From a virus (taxonomy: Duplodnaviria; Caudoviricetes), in the IMG/VR virus record IMGVR_UViG_3300026097_000024, positions 1 through 59,917 of that record: a stretch of 59,917 nucleotides of DNA; one strand, 5' to 3'. Below the pieces are notes generated by a model, which worked only from the letters and a program-made list of their open reading frames with translations, ran no database searches and had not been told where the DNA came from. Numbering within the stretch: the first letter of the stretch is position 1; each line of letters starts with the position of its first letter. Position numbers and translations under genes: made by a program. Positions 892-15,312 of the stretch are shown in pieces.

Positions 892-1371
892 TTAGACTTC
901 AGTTAGTACAAGAACATTTCTTGACGAATCGTTGTCAATGTACCATGTGTAAATGTTGCCGTCAAAGTCATATGCTTTACTACCATTAATTTTTCTAATA
1001 GTAACTTGATTTCCTTGACCTACACCATTAACCCATCCTAGAATAACCATTTCTCCTTCGTCTAGGTCCGAGCTGTCATCCCAGTCTGCAAGTGTACACA
1101 CGCCGTCGCCGTCAGATGTGCTTACCTTAAATCTGTTAGGACCTTTCTGTGCTACAATGTATAGATTATCGTTTGGTGCATCGTCGCCACCTTCGTTAGC
1201 GCCGCCAGGTATGCGGGCCATAAACACCGGCATGTTCCAAGCATTTTCATTTAATTTAGGTGCAGTATTTGAGGTTACTGTGTATCCGTGAATGTTTGTT
1301 CCGTCTGCTGTAGGATCAGCAGTTGATCCACCTTGTGGACCAAAATATTTTCTTGATAGTGGGCGTCCCAT
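892..1371 (-). CDS. Hypothetical late (probably virion) protein, 159 aa
   Basis: ORF with SD AAGGAGA, downstream of the major capsid gene, with a late-promoter motif upstream. Confidence 0.6.
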   Translation of the reverse strand: MGRPLSRKYFGPQGGSTADPTADGTNIHGYTVTSNTAPKLNENAWNMPVFMARIPGGANEGGDDAPNDNLYIVAQKGPNRFKVSTSDGDGVCTLADWDDSSDLDEGEMVILGWVNGVGQGNQVTIRKINGSKAYDFDGNIYTWYIDNDSSRNVLVLTEV

Positions 1372-1472
1372 TTGTTTTCTCCTTGTTAGAAGTCCGATGC
1401 AGGTTCTAGCCTGCTACGCGGTGGGTACCGCATAAGTCCACCACTTTTAGGTGGCACACTTATAGACAAATG

Positions 1473-6487: not shown

Positions 6488-8228
6488 TAGTTTGTTCACC
6501 AGGTGCTTCTGTCGGTCCAGGCTGTTGCTCGGTAGCAGTTTCTGGAGGTGTAGCTTCTGGTCCTTCTTCCGTTGGAGTGTCTATGTCAGCTATGTCTTCT
6601 GCACCGCTTATGTCAGAACTTATTCCTGCAGAACTGATGCCAACTCCTCGCATTTCACCTGCCGCGTCGCTTGGCTGAGGACTTAAATCTTCGTCATTTT
6701 CTTCTCGCCACAGTCGTTCATTCTCTGCAATTTCTTCAGCACTCAGCCCAAGATATCTTGACATTGCAAATCTGTTAGATATAAATGGTATCTGCTGAAT
6801 CTGAGAAAATGTAGGGATCCGCGCATTGTCTAATTCGCTTTGTCTGTATGCTGCAAAATTCTGAGGGACTTCAAATTTTAGATCAAACATTGAAGTATCA
6901 ATGTTAACACCTTTTTCTAATAGATAGCGTTTAAATTCTTGGTCAAAATCTTCTGCTATTAATCCTTGTAGTCTTTCGCAGTAATTGTTAAATCGCAGTT
7001 CTTGAATATATGCTGTACCTACTCTGCCGTCATTGTAGCTAGTTGCTCCATCATCAGCTCCGGTAGGCAGATATGAGCTCGGGATTCGTAAGCCGCGTAC
7101 AAGCTTATTAGTAAAGTATCTAAGATCATCAATTTCTCCAAGGTTTGTGCCTCCTGGCAGTGTTTCAACTTTTGATCCGCGCCCTTCTGCGGTTTGTGGA
7201 AAGAAGTAGTCTTCGTTGATTGACAAAGGATTATACGCCGAGTCTATAACATTCTGTCCACCGCCTGTTGCTGATGGAATCCTTCTTTGATGGATTTCAG
7301 TTTTTACCCGTTCAACAAATTGCATTGCAAGATGCGAAGGCATATTTCCTACATCAACATAAAATACTCTGCGTTCTGGTGCTCTTTGCACACGATAGAT
7401 AATAATAGCATCTTCTAAAAGTTCTTTTTGCTTGTAAACTTTGAATACACTTTCTAAAAGTGAATTACCAAAAGGATAATTATTGTCTAAACCTTCTGAT
7501 AAACTAAGATGCACAACATGCTCAGCATCAACGGCTACTTCACCTTCTTCAAGACTGAATCGGCTTCCGCTCATGGATGGGTAATTTCCTACCATCCCGC
7601 GAACACCACCTTCTGTATATCCGCTGCCACCTCCTGTTACATTTCCGTTAGTAACATGGGGTGTGGTTGCTACCATTTCTTTGAAGTTAAAAGAAATATC
7701 TTTGACAATGTATTGCTCTGGCTTTTTTCCTTCCGATTCATTTACAATAATTCGATTTACTTTTGCAGGATCTACATGAAACCATTTTTTTGTTTCTGGA
7801 TCTCTGATAAAAATAGAATCTCCATATTTGAAAGTGTTACGAAAAACACGAAACATTCTAGTTTCAAAATCATTAAGTTTACACCATTGTTTAAGATATT
7901 GACTGAGAATAGTTACTTCTGTGTTTGTTGCTTTTTTATGAAAATTAAATTTGAAATTTGTGCCGTTTTCTTCATTGATTTGTGTACAGAATTCTGCAAG
8001 AATATCAAGAGCAGCATTAACCTCTGAATCTAAATCCATTGTGTTGTACTGGCCATATCTTTCTATGCGGTTTGGAGAACCTACATACACATCAGGCAAA
8101 TAAGAGTTATAATTAGCCCTTGCAGGACCTGCTTGATTTCCTCCCGCGCGGCGCCCGTTAATTGGGCTATAACTACCTGACACATTATCTCCTGTGGGTA
8201 CAGGAGTGAAGTACTTTTTCCAGCTCAT
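6483..8228 (-). CDS. gp20: Portal vertex protein (T4 gp20 family)
   Basis: Motifs LLEDAIIIYRVQRAPERRVFYVDVGNMP, EDYFFPQTAEGRGSKVETLPGG and LRIPSSYL. Confidence 0.97.
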   Translation of the reverse strand: MSWKKYFTPVPTGDNVSGSYSPINGRRAGGNQAGPARANYNSYLPDVYVGSPNRIERYGQYNTMDLDSEVNAALDILAEFCTQINEENGTNFKFNFHKKATNTEVTILSQYLKQWCKLNDFETRMFRVFRNTFKYGDSIFIRDPETKKWFHVDPAKVNRIIVNESEGKKPEQYIVKDISFNFKEMVATTPHVTNGNVTGGGSGYTEGGVRGMVGNYPSMSGSRFSLEEGEVAVDAEHVVHLSLSEGLDNNYPFGNSLLESVFKVYKQKELLEDAIIIYRVQRAPERRVFYVDVGNMPSHLAMQFVERVKTEIHQRRIPSATGGGQNVIDSAYNPLSINEDYFFPQTAEGRGSKVETLPGGTNLGEIDDLRYFTNKLVRGLRIPSSYLPTGADDGATSYNDGRVGTAYIQELRFNNYCERLQGLIAEDFDQEFKRYLLEKGVNIDTSMFDLKFEVPQNFAAYRQSELDNARIPTFSQIQQIPFISNRFAMSRYLGLSAEEIAENERLWREENDEDLSPQPSDAAGEMRGVGISSAGISSDISGAEDIADIDTPTEEGPEATPPETATEQQPGPTEAPGEQTI

Positions 8229-11429: not shown

Positions 11430-11623
11430 ATCTAGTCAGACAGTACGAAAATGAATCTAAACAAATCAAAGACGATGTGTATCGCATAGGTTGGTATATG
11501 CGAGGATCATTCACATATGACGATCTCATGTTTAGAATATCTCACGAAGACAGGGAAATTATCAGTAGAATTATCAAAGACAACATCGAAAGGGTCAACG
11601 ATACTAAGATGCCTTTGCTTTAG
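11390..11623 (+). CDS. gp51-like small hub assembly ORF in the -1 frame, probably expressed as a frameshift fusion with the gp26-like ORF
   Basis: 77 open codons RSTLLALSDSEILDLVRQYENESKQIKDDVYRIGWYMRGSFTYDDLMFRISHEDREIISRIIKDNIERVNDTKMPLL*. No start codon in the first 29 codons. Begins at the T-TTT-TTC heptamer (11384-11390). Confidence 0.65.
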   Translation, partial: RSTLLALSDSEILDLVRQYENESKQIKDDVYRIGWYMRGSFTYDDLMFRISHEDREIISRIIKDNIERVNDTKMPLL

Positions 11624-12452
11624 ATTTTTTTTGGGCCTGTTTGACAATTTTTTTCAATTTTGGATCTTGTAAAATATTTTTCTTAACTTGCTTAACATAC
11701 TTGTTTACAGGTAATTTTTTCGGCAGTGTATCTTCTGCTTCACCTATGTTACAGTTTGCAAAACTTATTTTAGCCAGAACAGTCGGGCCGAACATAGTAT
11801 TCATTAAAGCATTTGACAAACCTTTTACAAAGTCAGTATCTTGAGATAATTTTCCTAACAGATATGCTATGTAACCACCAGTGGCAACTCCTAATATTCC
11901 TGCCAACCATCCAAACCCGGGAACTGCGCCTAGCAGTCTACTGAAAAGGGCTATAGATGCTGCAGTTGTTCCTACTGTCGATAAAAACCCCACTAGCATA
12001 CCAGATATTTCATCAACTAAATTTACCTGTGCCGCAACTACATATCTATCTCTAGGATTACACCCGCTTGCTTCATATGCATCGCCATATCTGTCCAAGG
12101 CATCTAGTAAATCGTCAGCGGAAAAAATTAGGAAAAATATTTTACCTACTATAGTTTGAGCAGCAAATTTTGCTATACTAGCGCCTAAACTTTTTGTCTT
12201 GTCAAGTAATCCACTTTTGGTTTTTTTCTTATCATCATCTGTGTCCGCATCAGATGTTTTTGGAGTTCTATCTGGATTATTTGCTGAAAGTTTTGCATTT
12301 GCAGACTTTGCTACTTGATTGGCTTTGCCCTTGATAGGATACACACCCTTTTCCGCTCCAGTTGTAGGATCCACAACTTTCCAGCCTTTTTTAAGACCAT
12401 AGTCAGTAGGAACAACTTCAAACTGTTCGTGTATGATTTCAGATACCTTCAT
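11604..12452 (-). CDS. Hypothetical late protein with hydrophobic helices; possible internal/ejected virion protein
   Basis: N-terminus MKVSEIIHE, a Gly-rich hydrophobic hairpin (AASIALFSRLLGAVPGFGWLAGILGVATGGYIAYLLG), and a late-promoter-like CTAAATA upstream. Confidence 0.55.
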   Translation of the reverse strand: MKVSEIIHEQFEVVPTDYGLKKGWKVVDPTTGAEKGVYPIKGKANQVAKSANAKLSANNPDRTPKTSDADTDDDKKKTKSGLLDKTKSLGASIAKFAAQTIVGKIFFLIFSADDLLDALDRYGDAYEASGCNPRDRYVVAAQVNLVDEISGMLVGFLSTVGTTAASIALFSRLLGAVPGFGWLAGILGVATGGYIAYLLGKLSQDTDFVKGLSNALMNTMFGPTVLAKISFANCNIGEAEDTLPKKLPVNKYVKQVKKNILQDPKLKKIVKQAQKKSKAKAS

Positions 12453-12469
12453 AAAAGTATTTAGTAGAG

Positions 12470-12888
12470 AAATGAGCTTACGCTCATTTAGTTTTCGCTT
12501 TCGCTCAAACTTGTTGATTTGTTTAAAGCAACGAGTGATAACGAAGTTGCTTATATTTCATGTAGATTGTTTCAGTCAGACGGAACCTGTTGTTGGGTTC
12601 CATCATCTCGAAAACTTCATGTGAGTTTTATCCAGCCGAGATCGGAAGTAGGTATTTGACTATGCTACTGGGCTCTGACCTTTCCCAACCTACGTCGACA
12701 TCAAAATATAGCTTATAAGCAATAATTTTTAAATTATAGCTAATATATAGCTAATACACTATATTTTTACCTCCCGCTTCGTTCCTGTGCTAAGGAGTTT
12801 TTGTAGCATACAGCCTGTGAGACACATCGCTTCCATCGGCAACGAGCATTACCTCGGCTGAATTGCGATGGATCGAGCCTCCTCGATC
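12470..12888 (-). ncRNA. Candidate large structured non-coding RNA
   Basis: ~420 nt with no credible ORF and at least 9 complementary segment pairs, including long-range and crossing helices (see findings). Confidence 0.55.
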
Positions 12889-13324
12889 AAACAGAGTCTT
12901 TATAGCCTTTGAGAGCCTCTATTAATGTTTTTGATCCGCCTACTCGGACATTTATAATGCCATTGTAGTAGTCGTCACTTTCTAACACACGACGATCAAA
13001 CTGTTCTCTTGCCTCTATGTATGACATCTCTGCCCTACTTTTGCAGAAGTATAATATTTCTCTTGTGAACTTGTCTTCGCCTAGTGCAGAAACATCAGCT
13101 TGTAGTTTGTCTGAGCTACCCCAGTATTCACGCCAGTCTGATTCCTTGTGTCCGCGTCTTTTGTTTTTTCGGCCTTTGAGAGGTGGTTTAGTGGTTTTAA
13201 ACTTAGCTAGTTTTTTGCCTATATATTTGCGCCCGTTGGTGAGATTGGTTATCAAGTAGACAAATCCTTCGTAATGGTCGGATATACTGTCTACGGGTTT
13301 GCCTTGATAAGTCCATGTGCTCAT
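12887..13324 (-). CDS. GIY-YIG family endonuclease (Seg-like, catalytic domain only)
   Basis: Motifs GFVYLITNLTNGRKYIGKK, YWGSS, FTREIL, catalytic-type E (YIEAREQ) and YYN. Confidence 0.85.
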   Translation of the reverse strand: MSTWTYQGKPVDSISDHYEGFVYLITNLTNGRKYIGKKLAKFKTTKPPLKGRKNKRRGHKESDWREYWGSSDKLQADVSALGEDKFTREILYFCKSRAEMSYIEAREQFDRRVLESDDYYNGIINVRVGGSKTLIEALKGYKDSV

Positions 13325-13339
13325 GAACTTATATAGTGC

Positions 13340-13543
13340 CTATTTTTTGTTTCTGTTATGAATCTGATCGAAAAGCGTTTTGTTTTCTTTCTGTTTGGCC
13401 TTTGATAATTTTTGTATTTCTCTTAATTTTTGTTGAGTGGTATAGTAAGTCCTCACGGACCTTCTGGTTTCCCACTTTTCATTAGCTTTGTAATATTCTA
13501 TATAAGCCTTGGTCAATTTATCATGAGTATCGTCTTCTATCAT
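13340..13543 (-). CDS. Hypothetical protein, 67 aa
   Basis: ORF coupled to gp46 through a 4-nt start/stop overlap. Confidence 0.6.
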   Translation of the reverse strand: MIEDDTHDKLTKAYIEYYKANEKWETRRSVRTYYTTQQKLREIQKLSKAKQKENKTLFDQIHNRNKK

Positions 13544-15312
13544 TCTACTACATCTAAATCATTCTCATATGATGTAAATCCGTTTTCCTTTACTACTTTT
13601 AGGATATGATTTACACGCCCAACCAATTCATCCTTGTGCGAAATAAGGAATATATTTTTATCTCGTTCTCTGCCTATCTTTTTCAACACACTGAGAGAAT
13701 TTTCCACGCCTGCCGTGTCCATGCCTGAGTCTATTAATTCGTCGATAAACAGCAGATTAATGTTTTGATACAGACTTTCCCATACATCTCTGAATGCAAA
13801 GCTCAGTCCAAGTATCAGCCTGTTGCGTTCACCCCTGCTTAAATTATCAAAATCTAAATCTTGTCCTAGCTGTGTTATTTCCACGCTGAGATCATTTTGG
13901 AACTGAACCTGGTGAGGCAGTCCTAGACGATCCAGATAGTACGATAATCGGTTGTTTAAGTATGCCAGATTCTGATCAATAATCTTCTTGCGAATAAAGC
14001 TGTCTTTGTTGGTCAACAATTTCAGCAAGAACTCCTGATGTTCCTTAACATTTGTTAGTTCGTTAACTGTTGACCAGTCTACTGCTTGTATTGCTTCTTG
14101 ATTTAGCTCATCAATCTGTGATTGGTAAGGATCTTGTTCTTGCTTTTTACTTATCAGCATTTGACGCAAGTTATCTACATTGTTTCTGTGTTCATAGGCT
14201 TCTTTCACTGTGTCATAGTATGTAACGGGTTTTGCATCCAGGTCGCCTAGATCAGCAAGTCCTTTCAGCACTTCAGACAACTTAGCGTCAACCTCGGCTT
14301 GGTATGCCACAGCATCTTCAAGTTCTTTGGCTTTTTCGCTAAGAATTTCCTGCTTTTTGTCTTCGTGAATAGCTTGTCCACAGGTATAACAGGTTGCATC
14401 TTCGAGCTCCAACACATCTTTTTCAATTTTTTTCACTCGTTTGTCTGCCTGTATCAGCGCAGAGTCCAAGGTGCTTTTCTCTTTGTTCAGCACTGTGATT
14501 GCGTTGTTCATTTCACTCCAATTAGCAAGCTTGTCGTGTGCCAGCAGTTCTGAATCAATGTCCAAATGCTCCAGCTCTTGGATGCTGGCTTCTAGCTTTT
14601 CACAGTCTCGGTGTTGTTTTGACACCCAAGCTCGCTGTGTTCCTTTGAGATTGTCAATGGTTGATTGGATTTTTTCATTGGCTGTTTGTATAGCATTGAT
14701 ACGGGCCGTTTCTTCTTGAATAGCATCTTTGCTTTGTTTTACCTGATCTTTGAGATTTTCTGCTTTTTCAGAAAGAATAGTAATGCCCAGTAGTTGTTCA
14801 ATGATTGCTCGCTGATCATTTTGTCGCATGCTGAGGAAAGGTTCCGAGTATGTGTTCAGCGCAACAATGTGTTTGAACATGTCATGGCTCATGCCCAATA
14901 GATCGTTAACAAAATCCTGTGTTTTGCGGCTGTCGCCCTGCGACTCGTCGGTCATTTCTTGTTCTTGCTCGTCAACAAAAAATTTAAACACATTAGGAGA
15001 GCGACCTCGCTCAATCCTATAGTCTACGCCGGCTTTTTCGAAGTGTAAGGTGACCAACATCCCCTTAGAATTAGTCTTATTAATAAGATTATTCCGTTTG
15101 ATGTTGGTCAGTGCTTGGCCGTACAAAGCATAACTAAGAGCATTAATGATCGTAGTTTTACCAGTACCATTGCGCGATCCTGAATCGTCACCTCCTTGGT
15201 CTAAATTTTCACCAAGCACTAGAGTTAATTTTTCTTTGTTGAAATCCACAGCTTGGGTCTGATTCCCTACACTCATGAAATTCTTTACTGTTAAATCCTT
15301 GATGCGTATCAT
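13540..15312 (-). CDS. gp46: Recombination endonuclease ATPase subunit (gp46, Rad50/SbcC-like)
   Basis: KNFMSVGN, Walker A NGTGKTT, zinc hook CYTC, signature LSRGE, Walker B LLFIDE and H-loop ISH. Confidence 0.95.
   Translation of the reverse strand: MIRIKDLTVKNFMSVGNQTQAVDFNKEKLTLVLGENLDQGGDDSGSRNGTGKTTIINALSYALYGQALTNIKRNNLINKTNSKGMLVTLHFEKAGVDYRIERGRSPNVFKFFVDEQEQEMTDESQGDSRKTQDFVNDLLGMSHDMFKHIVALNTYSEPFLSMRQNDQRAIIEQLLGITILSEKAENLKDQVKQSKDAIQEETARINAIQTANEKIQSTIDNLKGTQRAWVSKQHRDCEKLEASIQELEHLDIDSELLAHDKLANWSEMNNAITVLNKEKSTLDSALIQADKRVKKIEKDVLELEDATCYTCGQAIHEDKKQEILSEKAKELEDAVAYQAEVDAKLSEVLKGLADLGDLDAKPVTYYDTVKEAYEHRNNVDNLRQMLISKKQEQDPYQSQIDELNQEAIQAVDWSTVNELTNVKEHQEFLLKLLTNKDSFIRKKIIDQNLAYLNNRLSYYLDRLGLPHQVQFQNDLSVEITQLGQDLDFDNLSRGERNRLILGLSFAFRDVWESLYQNINLLFIDELIDSGMDTAGVENSLSVLKKIGRERDKNIFLISHKDELVGRVNHILKVVKENGFTSYENDLDVVE

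What the first reader, a model, noticed from the sequence alone, without database searches (positions are those of the whole stretch)
12470..12888. Large, apparently pseudoknotted RNA encoded directly downstream of a stand-alone GIY-YIG nuclease
Seen (plus-strand coordinates): this is the only long ORF-free gap in a densely coding window, and it is full of complementary segments. A long-range helix pairs 12630-12640 with 12853-12863; it has a C-A mismatch on the plus strand but a G-U wobble on the minus strand, which points to a minus-strand RNA. TATGCTAC 12661-68 pairs with GTAGCATA 12803-10, and GTAGGT 12648-53 pairs with ACCTAC 12688-93, crossing the previous helix (pseudoknot). CATCGC 12825-30 with GCGATG 12865-70 is a second possible crossing helix. 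Local stems lie at 12669-87, 12703-67 (AT-rich, insertion-like), 12771-97, 12582-601, 12611-29, 12526-52, 12470-89 and 12871-88. The element starts at the stop codon of a 145-aa GIY-YIG protein that lacks the long DNA-recognition tail of I-TevI/Seg enzymes but has a basic insert (KTTKPPLKGRKNKRRGHK). Inference: an undescribed phage ncRNA or ribozyme, possibly an RNP partner of the nuclease by analogy with HEARO/omegaRNA-IscB. A replication origin or an intron remnant are alternatives. I could not recognise group I intron, RNase P or tmRNA consensus elements.
Basis: partly seen in the sequence, partly recalled or inferred. Interest (0 to 1): 0.85.

Follow-up and report, generated by a model that had tools for sequence, protein, structure and literature searches.

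The report
Twin-box knotted RNA beside phage nuclease
The gene-free stretch behind a small DNA-cutting enzyme gene of this uncultured marine giant phage encodes a real, intricately knotted RNA that shows the same seven-letter word twice. The RNA is common in such phages, barely catalogued and not tied to the enzyme, and its job is still unknown.

Summary
Window 12470-12888 is the largest ORF-free gap (434 nt). On the minus strand it encodes a multi-domain, pseudoknotted RNA. A covariance model built from 56 other loci hits 12554-12810(-) at 173 bits, against 10 bits on the plus strand. On 95 distinct homologues, 25 of 42 core pairs change on both sides. This includes two pseudoknot helices that were not part of the model. 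The 3' module has 14 of 15 such pairs.

Two identical 7-nt words (ACAUGAA; 12616-22 and 12557-63) flank a conserved hairpin. They stay identical in 118 of 120 type A relatives across 12 different words. No complementary partner was found in cis or nearby.

The nuclease-RNP idea is not supported, because RNA and GIY-YIG gene each occur without the other.

Rfam has no match for the window. In two relatives the 5' domain is RF01718, Polynucleobacter-1.

This scan has reported the same "twin-box" family many times on other DNA. Function remains inferred.

The parts
12470..12888 (-). Whole structured RNA element (5' at 12888, 3' near 12470). True transcript ends are unknown.
   Evidence: ORF-free. 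Conserved in all 50 unique loci that have at least 450 nt after the nuclease gene. Fold z -4.08.
12554..12810 (-). Core matched by covariance model R1, which was built from 56 other loci
   Evidence: 173 bits, E 1.6e-39, model positions 1-211 of 211. Best plus-strand hit here is 10.3 bits.
12871..12888 (-). 5' hairpin hp1 (GAUCGAG/CUCGAUC). It overlaps the nuclease stop codon.
   Evidence: Variants GAUCUAG/CUAGAUC and GUCGAG/CUCGAC occur in relatives (read by eye).
12865..12870 (-). Helix P5b, 5' strand (CAUCGC)
   Evidence: Pairs with 12825-30. Relatives show CGCU/AGCG, CACC/GGUG, CUCC/GGAG, CGUCA/UGACG, GCCA/UGGU and CGCUA/UAGCG (read by eye).
12825..12830 (-). Helix P5b, 3' strand (GCGAUG)
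   Evidence: As above.
12839..12858 (-). Local bulged hairpin hp2 (GCCGAG...CUCGuuGC), followed by GAUGGAA at 12831-37
   Evidence: Other relatives carry hairpins of different sequence at the same place. The layout resembles hairpin 2 plus GAUGGAA of RF01718 (by eye).
12803..12810 (-). Long-range helix LR1, 5' strand (UAUGCUAC)
   Evidence: 4 of 4 modelled pairs change on both sides. Cognate duplex -11.2 against non-cognate -6.7 kcal/mol on 100 sequences.
12661..12668 (-). LR1, 3' strand (GUAGCAUA). It lies inside helix H3, so the two form a pseudoknot.
12771..12797 (-). Hairpin H1 with a conserved loop (..AGGAACGAAGC)
   Evidence: 7 of 7 pairs change on both sides (helices 2 and 3).
12699..12770 (-). 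Hairpin H2. Length varies between relatives; here it is long and AT-rich.
   Evidence: 3 of 3 base pairs change on both sides. Relatives have a short GNRA-capped hairpin.
12694..12696 (-). Pseudoknot PK2, 5' strand (GAC)
   Evidence: Pairs with GUC at 12677-79. 3 of 3 pairs change on both sides, 99.6% paired, and the helix was not part of the model.
12677..12679 (-). PK2, 3' strand (GUC), in the loop of H3a
   Evidence: Coordinates.
12688..12693 (-). Helix H3, 5' strand (GUAGGU)
   Evidence: 99.3% paired, 2 of 6 pairs change on both sides, not part of the model.
12648..12653 (-). Helix H3, 3' strand (ACCUAC)
12669..12687 (-). Hairpin H3a (UGGG-AAAGGUCAGAG-CCCA)
   Evidence: 99.2% paired, 2 of 4 pairs change on both sides.
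12632..12647 (-). Conserved segment UUCC..UCUCGGCUGG with no supported pairing partner
Evidence: Nearly invariant. The candidate helix with CGAGA is only 52% paired.
12616..12622 (-). Twin box 1 (ACAUGAA, preceded by ACUC)
12579..12604 (-). Hairpin H5 (GAUGGAACC/GGUUCCGUC) between the two boxes
   Evidence: 96.4% paired with many G-U/A-U/C-G exchanges. Type B relatives have UUCGCCC/GGGCGAA here.
12557..12563 (-). Twin box 2 (ACAUGAA, preceded by AUCU)
   Evidence: The strongest mutual-information partner is the matching box-2 position for 5 of the 7 word positions; of the other two, one is invariant and one nearly so.
12526..12552 (-). Hairpin after box 2
   Evidence: Relatives have hairpins of other sequence here, mostly UUCG-capped (by eye). 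Not counted.
12490..12511 (-). Hairpin AGUUU-GAGC-GAAA-GCGA-AAACU with a putative tandem G-A motif and a GNNA loop
   Evidence: 5 of 5 outer pairs and 1 of 2 inner pairs change on both sides.
12470..12489 (-). Terminal hairpin (AAAUGAGC-GUAA-GCUCAUUU)
   Evidence: 8 of 8 pairs change on both sides.
12457..12464 (-). CUAAAUAC, resembling a T4-type late promoter, just before the next gene (ATG at 12452)
   Evidence: TAAATA is conserved before the next gene's start in most loci (by eye). The T4 late-promoter consensus is recalled.
12887..13324 (-). Stand-alone SegE-type GIY-YIG nuclease gene, 145 aa. A frequent neighbour, not part of the RNA.
   Evidence: PF19835 E 1.4e-35. phrog_447 E 1.4e-38.

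Best explanation
Window 12470-12888 (minus strand) is the gene for a large, independent, non-coding RNA of about 420 nt. It belongs to the 'twin-box' family of uncultured aquatic T4-like giant phages.

Shown:
- The RNA folds into a 5' domain (hp1, P5b, hp2).
- It has a core locked by two pseudoknots: LR1 crossing H3, and a 3-bp helix PK2 between the H3 lead-in and the H3a loop.
- It has a 3' module of two or three hairpins.
- The core displays the same single-stranded 7-nt word twice (ACAUGAA here), 59 nt apart, on either side of a conserved hairpin.

Inferred:
- It is made as the tail of the gp47-gp46-orf67-GIY-YIG transcript. It ends at the 3' hairpins, just before the late promoter of the next gene.
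- The two boxes are one recognition surface used twice. Either each pairs with a copy of one complementary sequence carried in trans, or one partner toggles between them. That would explain why both copies must change together.
- The GIY-YIG gene is a homing-type nuclease parked beside a highly conserved RNA gene and is not the RNA's partner. T4 SegB sits in the tRNA cluster in the same way (recalled).
For: - Model R1, built without the window, scores 173 bits on the minus strand.
- Core covariation on 95 distinct sequences: 89.1% of cells paired against 80.5% in shuffles. 25 of 42 pairs change on both sides. Covariation score is 0.278 against 0.138 (0 of 500 shuffles reach it). Slid controls score at most 0.083.
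- The unfitted alignment A1 gives the same picture: 0.275 against 0.153.
- PK2 and H3 were not in the model and are 99.6% and 99.3% paired.
- LR1: cognate strands are more stable than non-cognate strands by 4.5 kcal/mol.
- 3' module: 14 of 15 pairs change on both sides.
- Frequent G-U pairs fix the strand, for example UG:63 at pair 282/306.
- Twin boxes are identical in 118 of 120 parsed type A sequences over 12 words, and in 9 of 10 type B sequences.
- For 5 of the 7 word positions, the strongest mutual-information partner of the box-1 position is the same position of box 2. Of the other two, one is invariant and one nearly so.
- One copy per phage record in 9 of 9 records searched.
- Independence from the nuclease gene.
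Against: - No transcript evidence of any kind. No RNA run was listed, so strand and ends rest on sequence alone.
- No trans partner was found. There is no consistent complement within -430..+200 nt or within about 3 kb either side. Cognate complements are not enriched in 1.1 Mb of flanks.
- No homologous site tracks the word across five partial genomes, 425 kb in all. Of 11 site clusters per orientation, 1 tracks, and that one is the RNA's own box.
- A protein dimer, a tertiary motif or a copying mechanism could equally demand two identical words.
- The sequences were gathered with an exact pattern in H5 and box 2, and they are related to one another. The shuffle controls therefore overstate significance.
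Confidence: 0.5

Rival explanations
1. The RNA is the guide or scaffold of an RNP formed with the neighbouring stand-alone GIY-YIG nuclease, which lacks a DNA-binding domain. The boxes would supply target recognition.
For: - The two genes are adjacent and on the same strand in 95 of 119 pattern-found loci. All 50 unique nuclease loci with enough downstream sequence have the RNA.
- The nuclease is only 145 aa, a catalytic domain alone.
- The RNA's first hairpin overlaps the nuclease stop codon.
Against: - Seven real RNA loci have no nuclease gene within 1.1 kb or more upstream. Their upstream genes include a PDDEXK endonuclease, a class II aldolase and unknowns. Two loci have the order reversed.
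- Melnitz carries the nuclease (71% identity) without the RNA.
- The short nuclease family occurs in 604 cultured-phage records, while the RNA matched none of them.
- The box words do not pair with the nuclease gene's start region.
Confidence: 0.1
2. It is a cis-acting part of the mRNA: a structured 3' end that stabilises, processes or insulates the early/middle gp46-GIY-YIG transcript from the late transcription unit that follows.
For: - It always sits between the end of one unit and a TAAATA late-promoter-like motif.
- It ends in strongly covarying hairpins.
- No promoter-like site stands out between the nuclease stop and the RNA.
Against: - About 420 nt with two pseudoknots, invariant single-stranded segments and twin boxes is far more than a 3' stabiliser needs.
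- In loci without the nuclease gene it follows a terminator-like hairpin and a TAAATA motif of its own, which suggests a separate unit (by eye).
Confidence: 0.12
3. It is an origin transcript. The structured RNA would form a persistent hybrid or primer for DNA replication beside the recombination genes gp46/gp47, as ColE1 RNA II or the T4 oriF/oriG transcripts do (recalled).
For: - It lies next to gp47-gp46 in most loci.
- Many contigs break inside it.
- Twin identical words could serve as realignment or priming sites.
Against: - Nothing tested points to DNA-level function.
- Conservation follows RNA pairing rules, G-U pairs included.
- Contig breaks are also expected for any segment that is highly conserved between co-occurring phages and borders a variable region.
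- I ran no composition-skew analysis.
Confidence: 0.1
4. It is a self-assembling ornate RNA in the manner of GOLLD and ROOL. Those RNAs are carried by phages and prophages and form RNA-only multimers.
For: - It has the size, the many tetraloops and pseudoknots, and the phage carriage.
- GOLLD, ROOL and OLE were reported to form RNA-only complexes (bioRxiv 10.1101/2024.12.08.627333; abstract seen in the listings only).
Against: - No Rfam match to GOLLD or ROOL.
- No complementary loop pairs were found.
- Identical words, as opposed to complementary ones, do not by themselves make a kissing contact.
Confidence: 0.1
5. It is a ribozyme, or the remnant of a self-splicing intron that once carried the nuclease gene.
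For: GIY-YIG genes often live in group I introns (recalled). The core is pseudoknotted.
Against: - No group I or group II hit even at E up to 10.
- The flanking genes are complete, separate ORFs.
- The downstream gene differs between loci.
Confidence: 0.03

Closest known systems
Rfam RF01718, Polynucleobacter-1 RNA (Weinberg et al. 2010, PMC2864571)
   Same: In relatives L044 and L065 the 141-nt motif is matched end to end, at 71.8 and 67.4 bits against a threshold of 37. It lies directly after the nuclease stop codon, so it is the 5' domain of those twin-box RNAs. The window's 5' domain has a similar order of parts: hairpin, linker, bulged hairpin, GAUGGAA (by eye).
   Different: The window gives no RF01718 hit even at E up to 10. 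Neither do 19 other loci at the gathering score. The motif covers only the 5' domain and not the pseudoknotted twin-box core or the 3' module. The paper's table lists it as a possible cis-regulatory motif of Burkholderiales and fresh water, with no function. It is the only paper in the library that names it.
GOLLD (RF01998) and ROOL (RF03087), large ornate RNAs of phages and prophages
   Same: The same kind of object: a large, ornate, phage-borne RNA of unknown function, defined by covariation.
   Different: No sequence or structure match. This RNA is smaller, and twin identical words are not a described feature of those RNAs (recalled).
T4 SegB in the tRNA / stable-RNA gene cluster (recalled; not read here)
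   Same: A free-standing GIY-YIG homing-type nuclease gene lodged next to conserved RNA genes, which offer conserved DNA for homing.
   Different: Here the nuclease is a 145-aa catalytic domain without a recognisable DNA-binding tail. The RNA is one large pseudoknotted molecule, and no tRNA is present in the window.
HEARO / omega-RNA with IscB; bridge RNAs of IS110
   Same: A structured RNA encoded beside a nuclease or recombinase gene. Bridge RNAs also present two recognition loops (recalled).
   Different: No HEARO hit. The RNA and the nuclease gene are separable. The two words are identical to each other, and no target was found.
Two-piece tmRNA of Melnitz-like phages (PMC9004378, passages read)
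   Same: A structured RNA gene carried by the nearest cultured relatives.
   Different: ARAGORN and Rfam find no tmRNA here. In Melnitz the tmRNA lies at another locus, upstream of the transcription coactivator gene.

Membership tests
   173 bits, E 1.6e-39, full length, minus strand.
Twin-box RNA | Two identical 7-nt words flanking the conserved hairpin H5 | tested here: met
   ACAUGAA at 12616-22 and 12557-63. The family rule holds in 118 of 120 sequences.
Twin-box RNA | Pseudoknots LR1 crossing H3, and PK2 | tested here: met
   All three helices are present in the window and covary in the family.
Rfam RF01718 Polynucleobacter-1 | Model score of at least 37 bits (gathering score) | tested here: not met
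   No hit in the window at the gathering score, nor at E up to 10 in 12300-13100.
Rfam RF01718 Polynucleobacter-1 | Order of elements: hairpin 1, linker, bulged hairpin 2, GAUGGAA | tested here: inconclusive
   A similar order was seen by eye when comparing. No alignment statistic was computed.
Group I intron (RF00028) | Model match, and a host gene split into two exons | tested here: not met
   No hit at E up to 10. The neighbouring genes are whole ORFs, and the downstream gene varies between loci.
Nuclease-guide RNP (HEARO/omega-RNA type) | Obligate co-occurrence of the RNA with its nuclease gene | tested here: not met
   Seven RNA loci lack the gene and two have it in reversed order. Melnitz has the gene without the RNA.
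Nuclease-guide RNP (HEARO/omega-RNA type) | Physical binding of the RNA and the nuclease | not testable with these tools
   Needs co-purification or an in vitro assay.
tmRNA (one- or two-piece) | tRNA-like domain and tag reading frame | tested here: not met
   ARAGORN finds 0 genes in the window. No tmRNA family in Rfam scans.
GOLLD / ROOL | Rfam model match | tested here: not met
SegE-type GIY-YIG nuclease (protein, PF19835) | Domain match with GIY..YIG motifs | tested here: met
   E 1.4e-35, 122.6 bits against a cut-off of 25. GFVY...KYIG is visible in the translation. Assignment of catalytic residues is by recall of I-TevI.
Seg / I-TevI homing endonucleases (full length) | C-terminal DNA-binding domain | tested here: not met
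   The protein is 145 aa. It matches only the N-terminal part of homing-endonuclease PHROGs whose profiles are 254-574 positions long. It matches a 148-position stand-alone family end to end.

The most novel reading that the evidence does not exclude
The twin boxes may be a programmable, bivalent guide. The RNA would pair with two copies of a 7-nt or longer word on DNA or RNA of the host or of a competing phage. It would thereby recruit or position recombination or nuclease machinery, with gp46/gp47 and the GIY-YIG enzyme as usual neighbours. That would make it an RNA-directed homing or bridging system in giant marine phages. A related reading is that the two identical words are realignment sites that let a polymerase copy the 48-68-nt unit between them repeatedly, as telomerase and DRT-type reverse transcriptases do with repeated template ends. 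Neither reading is excluded. No partner was found in the roughly 17-32% of each genome available, and no polymerase candidate was looked for.
Probability: 0.07. Interest if true: 0.9.

Novelty: new variant of a known kind. Interest (0 to 1): 0.62.

Why it matters
Large, intricately folded RNAs of unknown function are rare, and each one solved so far has revealed new biochemistry. It sits in a lineage of uncultured marine T4-like phages with estimated genomes of about 350 kb. It carries an unusual, easily testable signature: two words that must stay identical while their sequence is free to change. That signature points to a sequence-programmable interaction. The work also shows that Polynucleobacter-1, an Rfam motif orphaned for 16 years, is the 5' domain of some members of a much larger RNA. 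For the scan, it settles that the attractive 'GIY-YIG nuclease plus guide RNA' reading is probably wrong.

Tried and rejected
- **Rfam.** The whole window at gathering scores gave only freshwater-2 at 1369-1454. Region 12300-13100 at E up to 10 gave six snoRNA-type chance hits, E 0.98-9.2. Nineteen further loci gave none.
- **tRNA/tmRNA.** None found.
- **Cultured phages.** blastn of the element gave no match at E up to 0.01.
- **Expression.** No RNA holder was listed for 11600-13600.
- **Helix UCUCG/CGAGA.** Only 51-52% paired. Rejected.
Not conserved.
- **Stem closing box 1 or box 2.** Cognate no better than non-cognate.
- **Cis partner of the boxes.** The best bin held 21 of 123 sequences. 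No column outside the boxes covaries with them. No site within about 3 kb either side.
- **Pairing of the boxes with the nuclease gene's start codon region.** The -3..-1 bases do not follow the word.
- **Complement in the window.** Only chance-level near matches.
- **Complement enrichment in 1.1 Mb of flanks.** 0.044 per kb for cognate words against 0.053 per kb for non-cognate words.
- **Two complements close together in five records.** Only the RNA gene itself, plus one unmatched site in G004.
- **Homologous sites tracking the word across five partial genomes.** 1 of 11 clusters per orientation, and that one is the RNA's own box.
- **Anticodon-loop reading of the boxes.** In type A the complement keeps U at position 33 and a purine at position 37. 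However, G37 next to a CAU or UAU anticodon is not natural (recalled), and type B words have a pyrimidine there. Rejected.
- **Repeat-unit coding (a DRT2-like gene).** Unit lengths of 48-68 nt show no multiple-of-3 preference (34/36/53), and few concatemer frames are open. Rejected.
- **Mini-ORFs starting at the AUG inside the boxes.** Several words lack AUG.
- **RNAalifold.** On the 5' domains it predicted nothing because the alignment is poor. Those helices rest on my reading of the rows.
- **PDB search with the nuclease.** Only a chance hit, E 0.33.
- **Bacterial genomes.** 3 hits in 185,579 species genomes, all in MAGs. Two of them carry the phage synteny and are phage contigs.
- **Literature.**
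  - GIY-YIG / noncoding RNA / phage / covariation: 96 papers, and none of the 20 listed is relevant by title or abstract.
  - Pelagimyophage/Melnitz papers, passages read: no mention of this RNA.
  - 'Polynucleobacter-1': one paper.
  - PMC10690425, a catalogue of more than 10,000 candidate structured RNAs in phages: passages read, 0 mentions of GIY-YIG.
Full report
**What is there.**
- The stretch 12453-12886 is the largest part of the window without an ORF of 100 aa or more: 434 nt, with the next largest at 256 nt.
- It lies between a 145-aa SegE-type GIY-YIG gene at 12887-13324(-) (PF19835, E 1.4e-35) and a 282-aa ORF of no known family at 11604-12452(-).
- The minus strand folds at -117.3 kcal/mol, z -4.08 against shuffles. 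The plus strand folds at z -3.14.

**Where it comes from.**
- The window is 17% of a virus record by CheckV's estimate.
- Related records of 115-236 kb are rated 31-66% complete. The phages therefore have genomes of roughly 350 kb.
- The flanking genes are T4-like: gp47, gp46 and a baseplate protein.
- The nearest cultured relative of the nuclease is Methylophilales phage Melnitz, at 71% identity.
- The synteny gp47-gp46-orf67-GIY-YIG, then 450-800 nt without an ORF shared between loci, then a variable gene, holds in the IMG/VR loci.

**Conservation.**
- All 50 unique loci with at least 450 nt after the nuclease gene carry the element. Forty are type A, like the window, and ten are type B.
- In 185,579 species genomes a stricter pattern found three MAG contigs. 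Two of them have the phage synteny.
- No cultured phage matched.

**Structure.**
- I aligned 56 diverse cores (A1), wrote down the helices, counted them and built model R1.
- R1 hits the window, which was not in the alignment, at 12554-12810(-) with 173 bits. The plus strand gives 10 bits.
- On 100 hits (95 distinct; A2), 89.1% of cells pair and 25 of 42 pairs change on both sides. The covariation score is 0.278 against 0.138 for shuffles (0 of 500 reach it) and at most 0.083 for slid partners.
- A2 is fitted to the nested helices. H3 (99.3% paired) and the 3-bp PK2 (99.6% paired, 3 of 3 pairs changing on both sides) were not in the model.
- LR1 (12803-10 with 12661-68) crosses H3 (12688-93 with 12648-53). 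Its cognate strands pair 4.5 kcal/mol better than non-cognate ones on 100 sequences.
- The 3' module consists of a hairpin with a putative tandem G-A motif and a GNNA loop, followed by a terminal hairpin. It has 14 of 15 pairs changing on both sides.
I only read these from the rows.
- Two caveats apply. The sequences were collected with an exact pattern in H5 and the box-2 lead, so that strand is invariant by selection. They are also related, so the shuffle counts are not probabilities.

**What does not hold.**
- In 6 of the 11 5' domains shown, that hairpin is replaced by hairpins of other sequence, while the supposed partner UCUCGGCUG stays the same.
- The stem 12611-29 is peculiar to this window.
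- A helix UCUCG/CGAGA that I proposed myself is only about 52% paired.

**The twin boxes.**
- ACAUGAA occurs at 12616-22 (after ACUC) and at 12557-63 (after AUCU), 59 nt apart, either side of hairpin H5.
- Among 123 unique type A sequences, 120 could be parsed. In 118 of these the two 7-nt words are identical, although 12 different words occur.
- In type B, 9 of 10 are identical, with other words.
- For 5 of the 7 word positions, the best mutual-information partner of the box-1 position is the same position of box 2. Of the other two, one is invariant and one nearly so. No other column stands out.
- I found no complement anywhere I could look: in the element, within about 3 kb, at the nuclease gene's start, in 1.1 Mb of flanks, as a close pair in five records, or as a site tracking the word in five partial genomes.
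- The genomes searched are only 17-32% complete, so a partner elsewhere in the phage or in the host is not excluded.

**Relation to the nuclease.**
- Of the 119 pattern-found loci, 95 have the GIY-YIG gene upstream, 2 have it downstream, and 14 are too short to tell.
- Eight have no nuclease gene within 1.1 kb or more. One of these (L172) is a chance match that R1 does not hit. The other seven are scored by R1 at 84-157 bits or are identical to one that is.
- The genes upstream of those seven include a PDDEXK endonuclease, a class II aldolase and unknowns.
- Melnitz has the nuclease in another context, with a 148-nt gap after it and no R1 hit.
- The nuclease matches a 148-position stand-alone PHROG end to end and occurs in 604 cultured-phage records.
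- The two genes are habitual neighbours, not an obligate pair.

**Known families.**
- Rfam has nothing for the window.
- Following a lead in this scan's earlier notes, I scanned relatives. In L044 and L065 the first 141 nt after the nuclease stop are a full-length RF01718 (Polynucleobacter-1) match at 71.8 and 67.4 bits.
- Seven other true elements in that call and 19 further loci have no such match.
- RF01718 is therefore one of at least three interchangeable 5' domains of this family.
- The 2010 paper lists it only in a table, as a possible cis-regulatory motif. No other paper in the library names it.
- A 2023 catalogue of phage RNA candidates does not mention GIY-YIG in its text.

**How it most likely works.**
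- Shown: a conserved, single-copy RNA gene on the minus strand, with a knotted core that holds two identical words.
- Inferred: it is transcribed with the upstream genes and ends before the late promoter-like TAAATA of the next gene.
- Inferred: the boxes bind one kind of complementary partner twice, or alternately, which is the simplest reason for two sites to change together.
- I give this 0.5 overall. Nearly all of the doubt lies in the functional half.
- The rivals are a nuclease RNP (0.1), a cis 3' element (0.12), an origin transcript (0.1), a self-assembling RNA (0.1) and a ribozyme or intron remnant (0.03).

**Verdict.**
- It is a genuine, abundant, essentially uncatalogued large RNA with an unusual signature. 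This scan has already met it many times on other DNA. Interest 0.62.

Noticed in passing
window 1369-1454 (-): Full-length match to Rfam RF02980, freshwater-2 RNA (72.1 bits against a threshold of 49.9). It is the only Rfam hit in the window.
   Followed up: no
loci L001-L081 and L084-L202: Contigs break inside or just after the RNA. 24 of the 80 nuclease loci end 5-380 nt after the nuclease stop, and L059 ends inside the gene. 14 of 119 pattern loci have less than 1.1 kb upstream of the RNA core, and 7 cores are cut at the contig's 5' end. The likely cause is a highly conserved segment shared by co-occurring phages next to a variable region.
   Followed up: partly
window as a whole; G001-G010: CheckV completeness implies genomes of about 350 kb: 59.9 kb = 17%, 236 kb = 66%. 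That is far larger than Melnitz at 141.5 kb.
   Followed up: no
window 13325-13340 and homologous loci: The nuclease gene has no Shine-Dalgarno-like sequence. A conserved TATAAGT / GTAAGTA motif sits a few bases (about 3-5) before its ATG in most loci. It could be a promoter for a near-leaderless mRNA.
   Followed up: no
L085, L136, L153, L155 (upstream of the RNA): Where no nuclease gene precedes the RNA, the RNA follows a terminator-like hairpin (L085, L136, L153) and a TAAATA late-promoter-like motif (L085, L136, L153). In these three loci and in L155 a lead-in of about 100 nt carries three or four AGGCA-like repeats (by eye).
   Followed up: no
window 12831-12837 and 12598-12604 (-): GAUGGAA occurs twice, once in the 5' domain and once as the 5' strand of H5. 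The same heptamer is conserved in RF01718.
   Followed up: no
L204, L205 (MAG of Candidatus Neomarinimicrobiota, contigs of 335 and 153 kb): Both carry the nuclease gene beside the RNA; the gp47-gp46-orf67-nuclease-RNA run was seen in L205 (L204 starts at the nuclease gene). They look like giant-phage contigs binned into a bacterial MAG.
   Followed up: partly
G004:C1:68084-68104 (+): TTCATGT occurs twice, 7 nt apart. It is the complement of this phage's box word, on the strand opposite the RNA gene. This was seen in 1 of 5 records and is about what chance allows.
   Followed up: no
window 7770-7783 (+): ATCTACATGAAACC matches 12 of the 14 letters of box 2 with its flanks. This is within chance expectation.
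   Followed up: no
cultured-phage records: Many cyanophage and rhizobiophage homologues of this GIY-YIG protein are annotated 'NAD synthetase', as is phrog_447. The Pfam match suggests that name is an annotation error being passed on.
   Followed up: no
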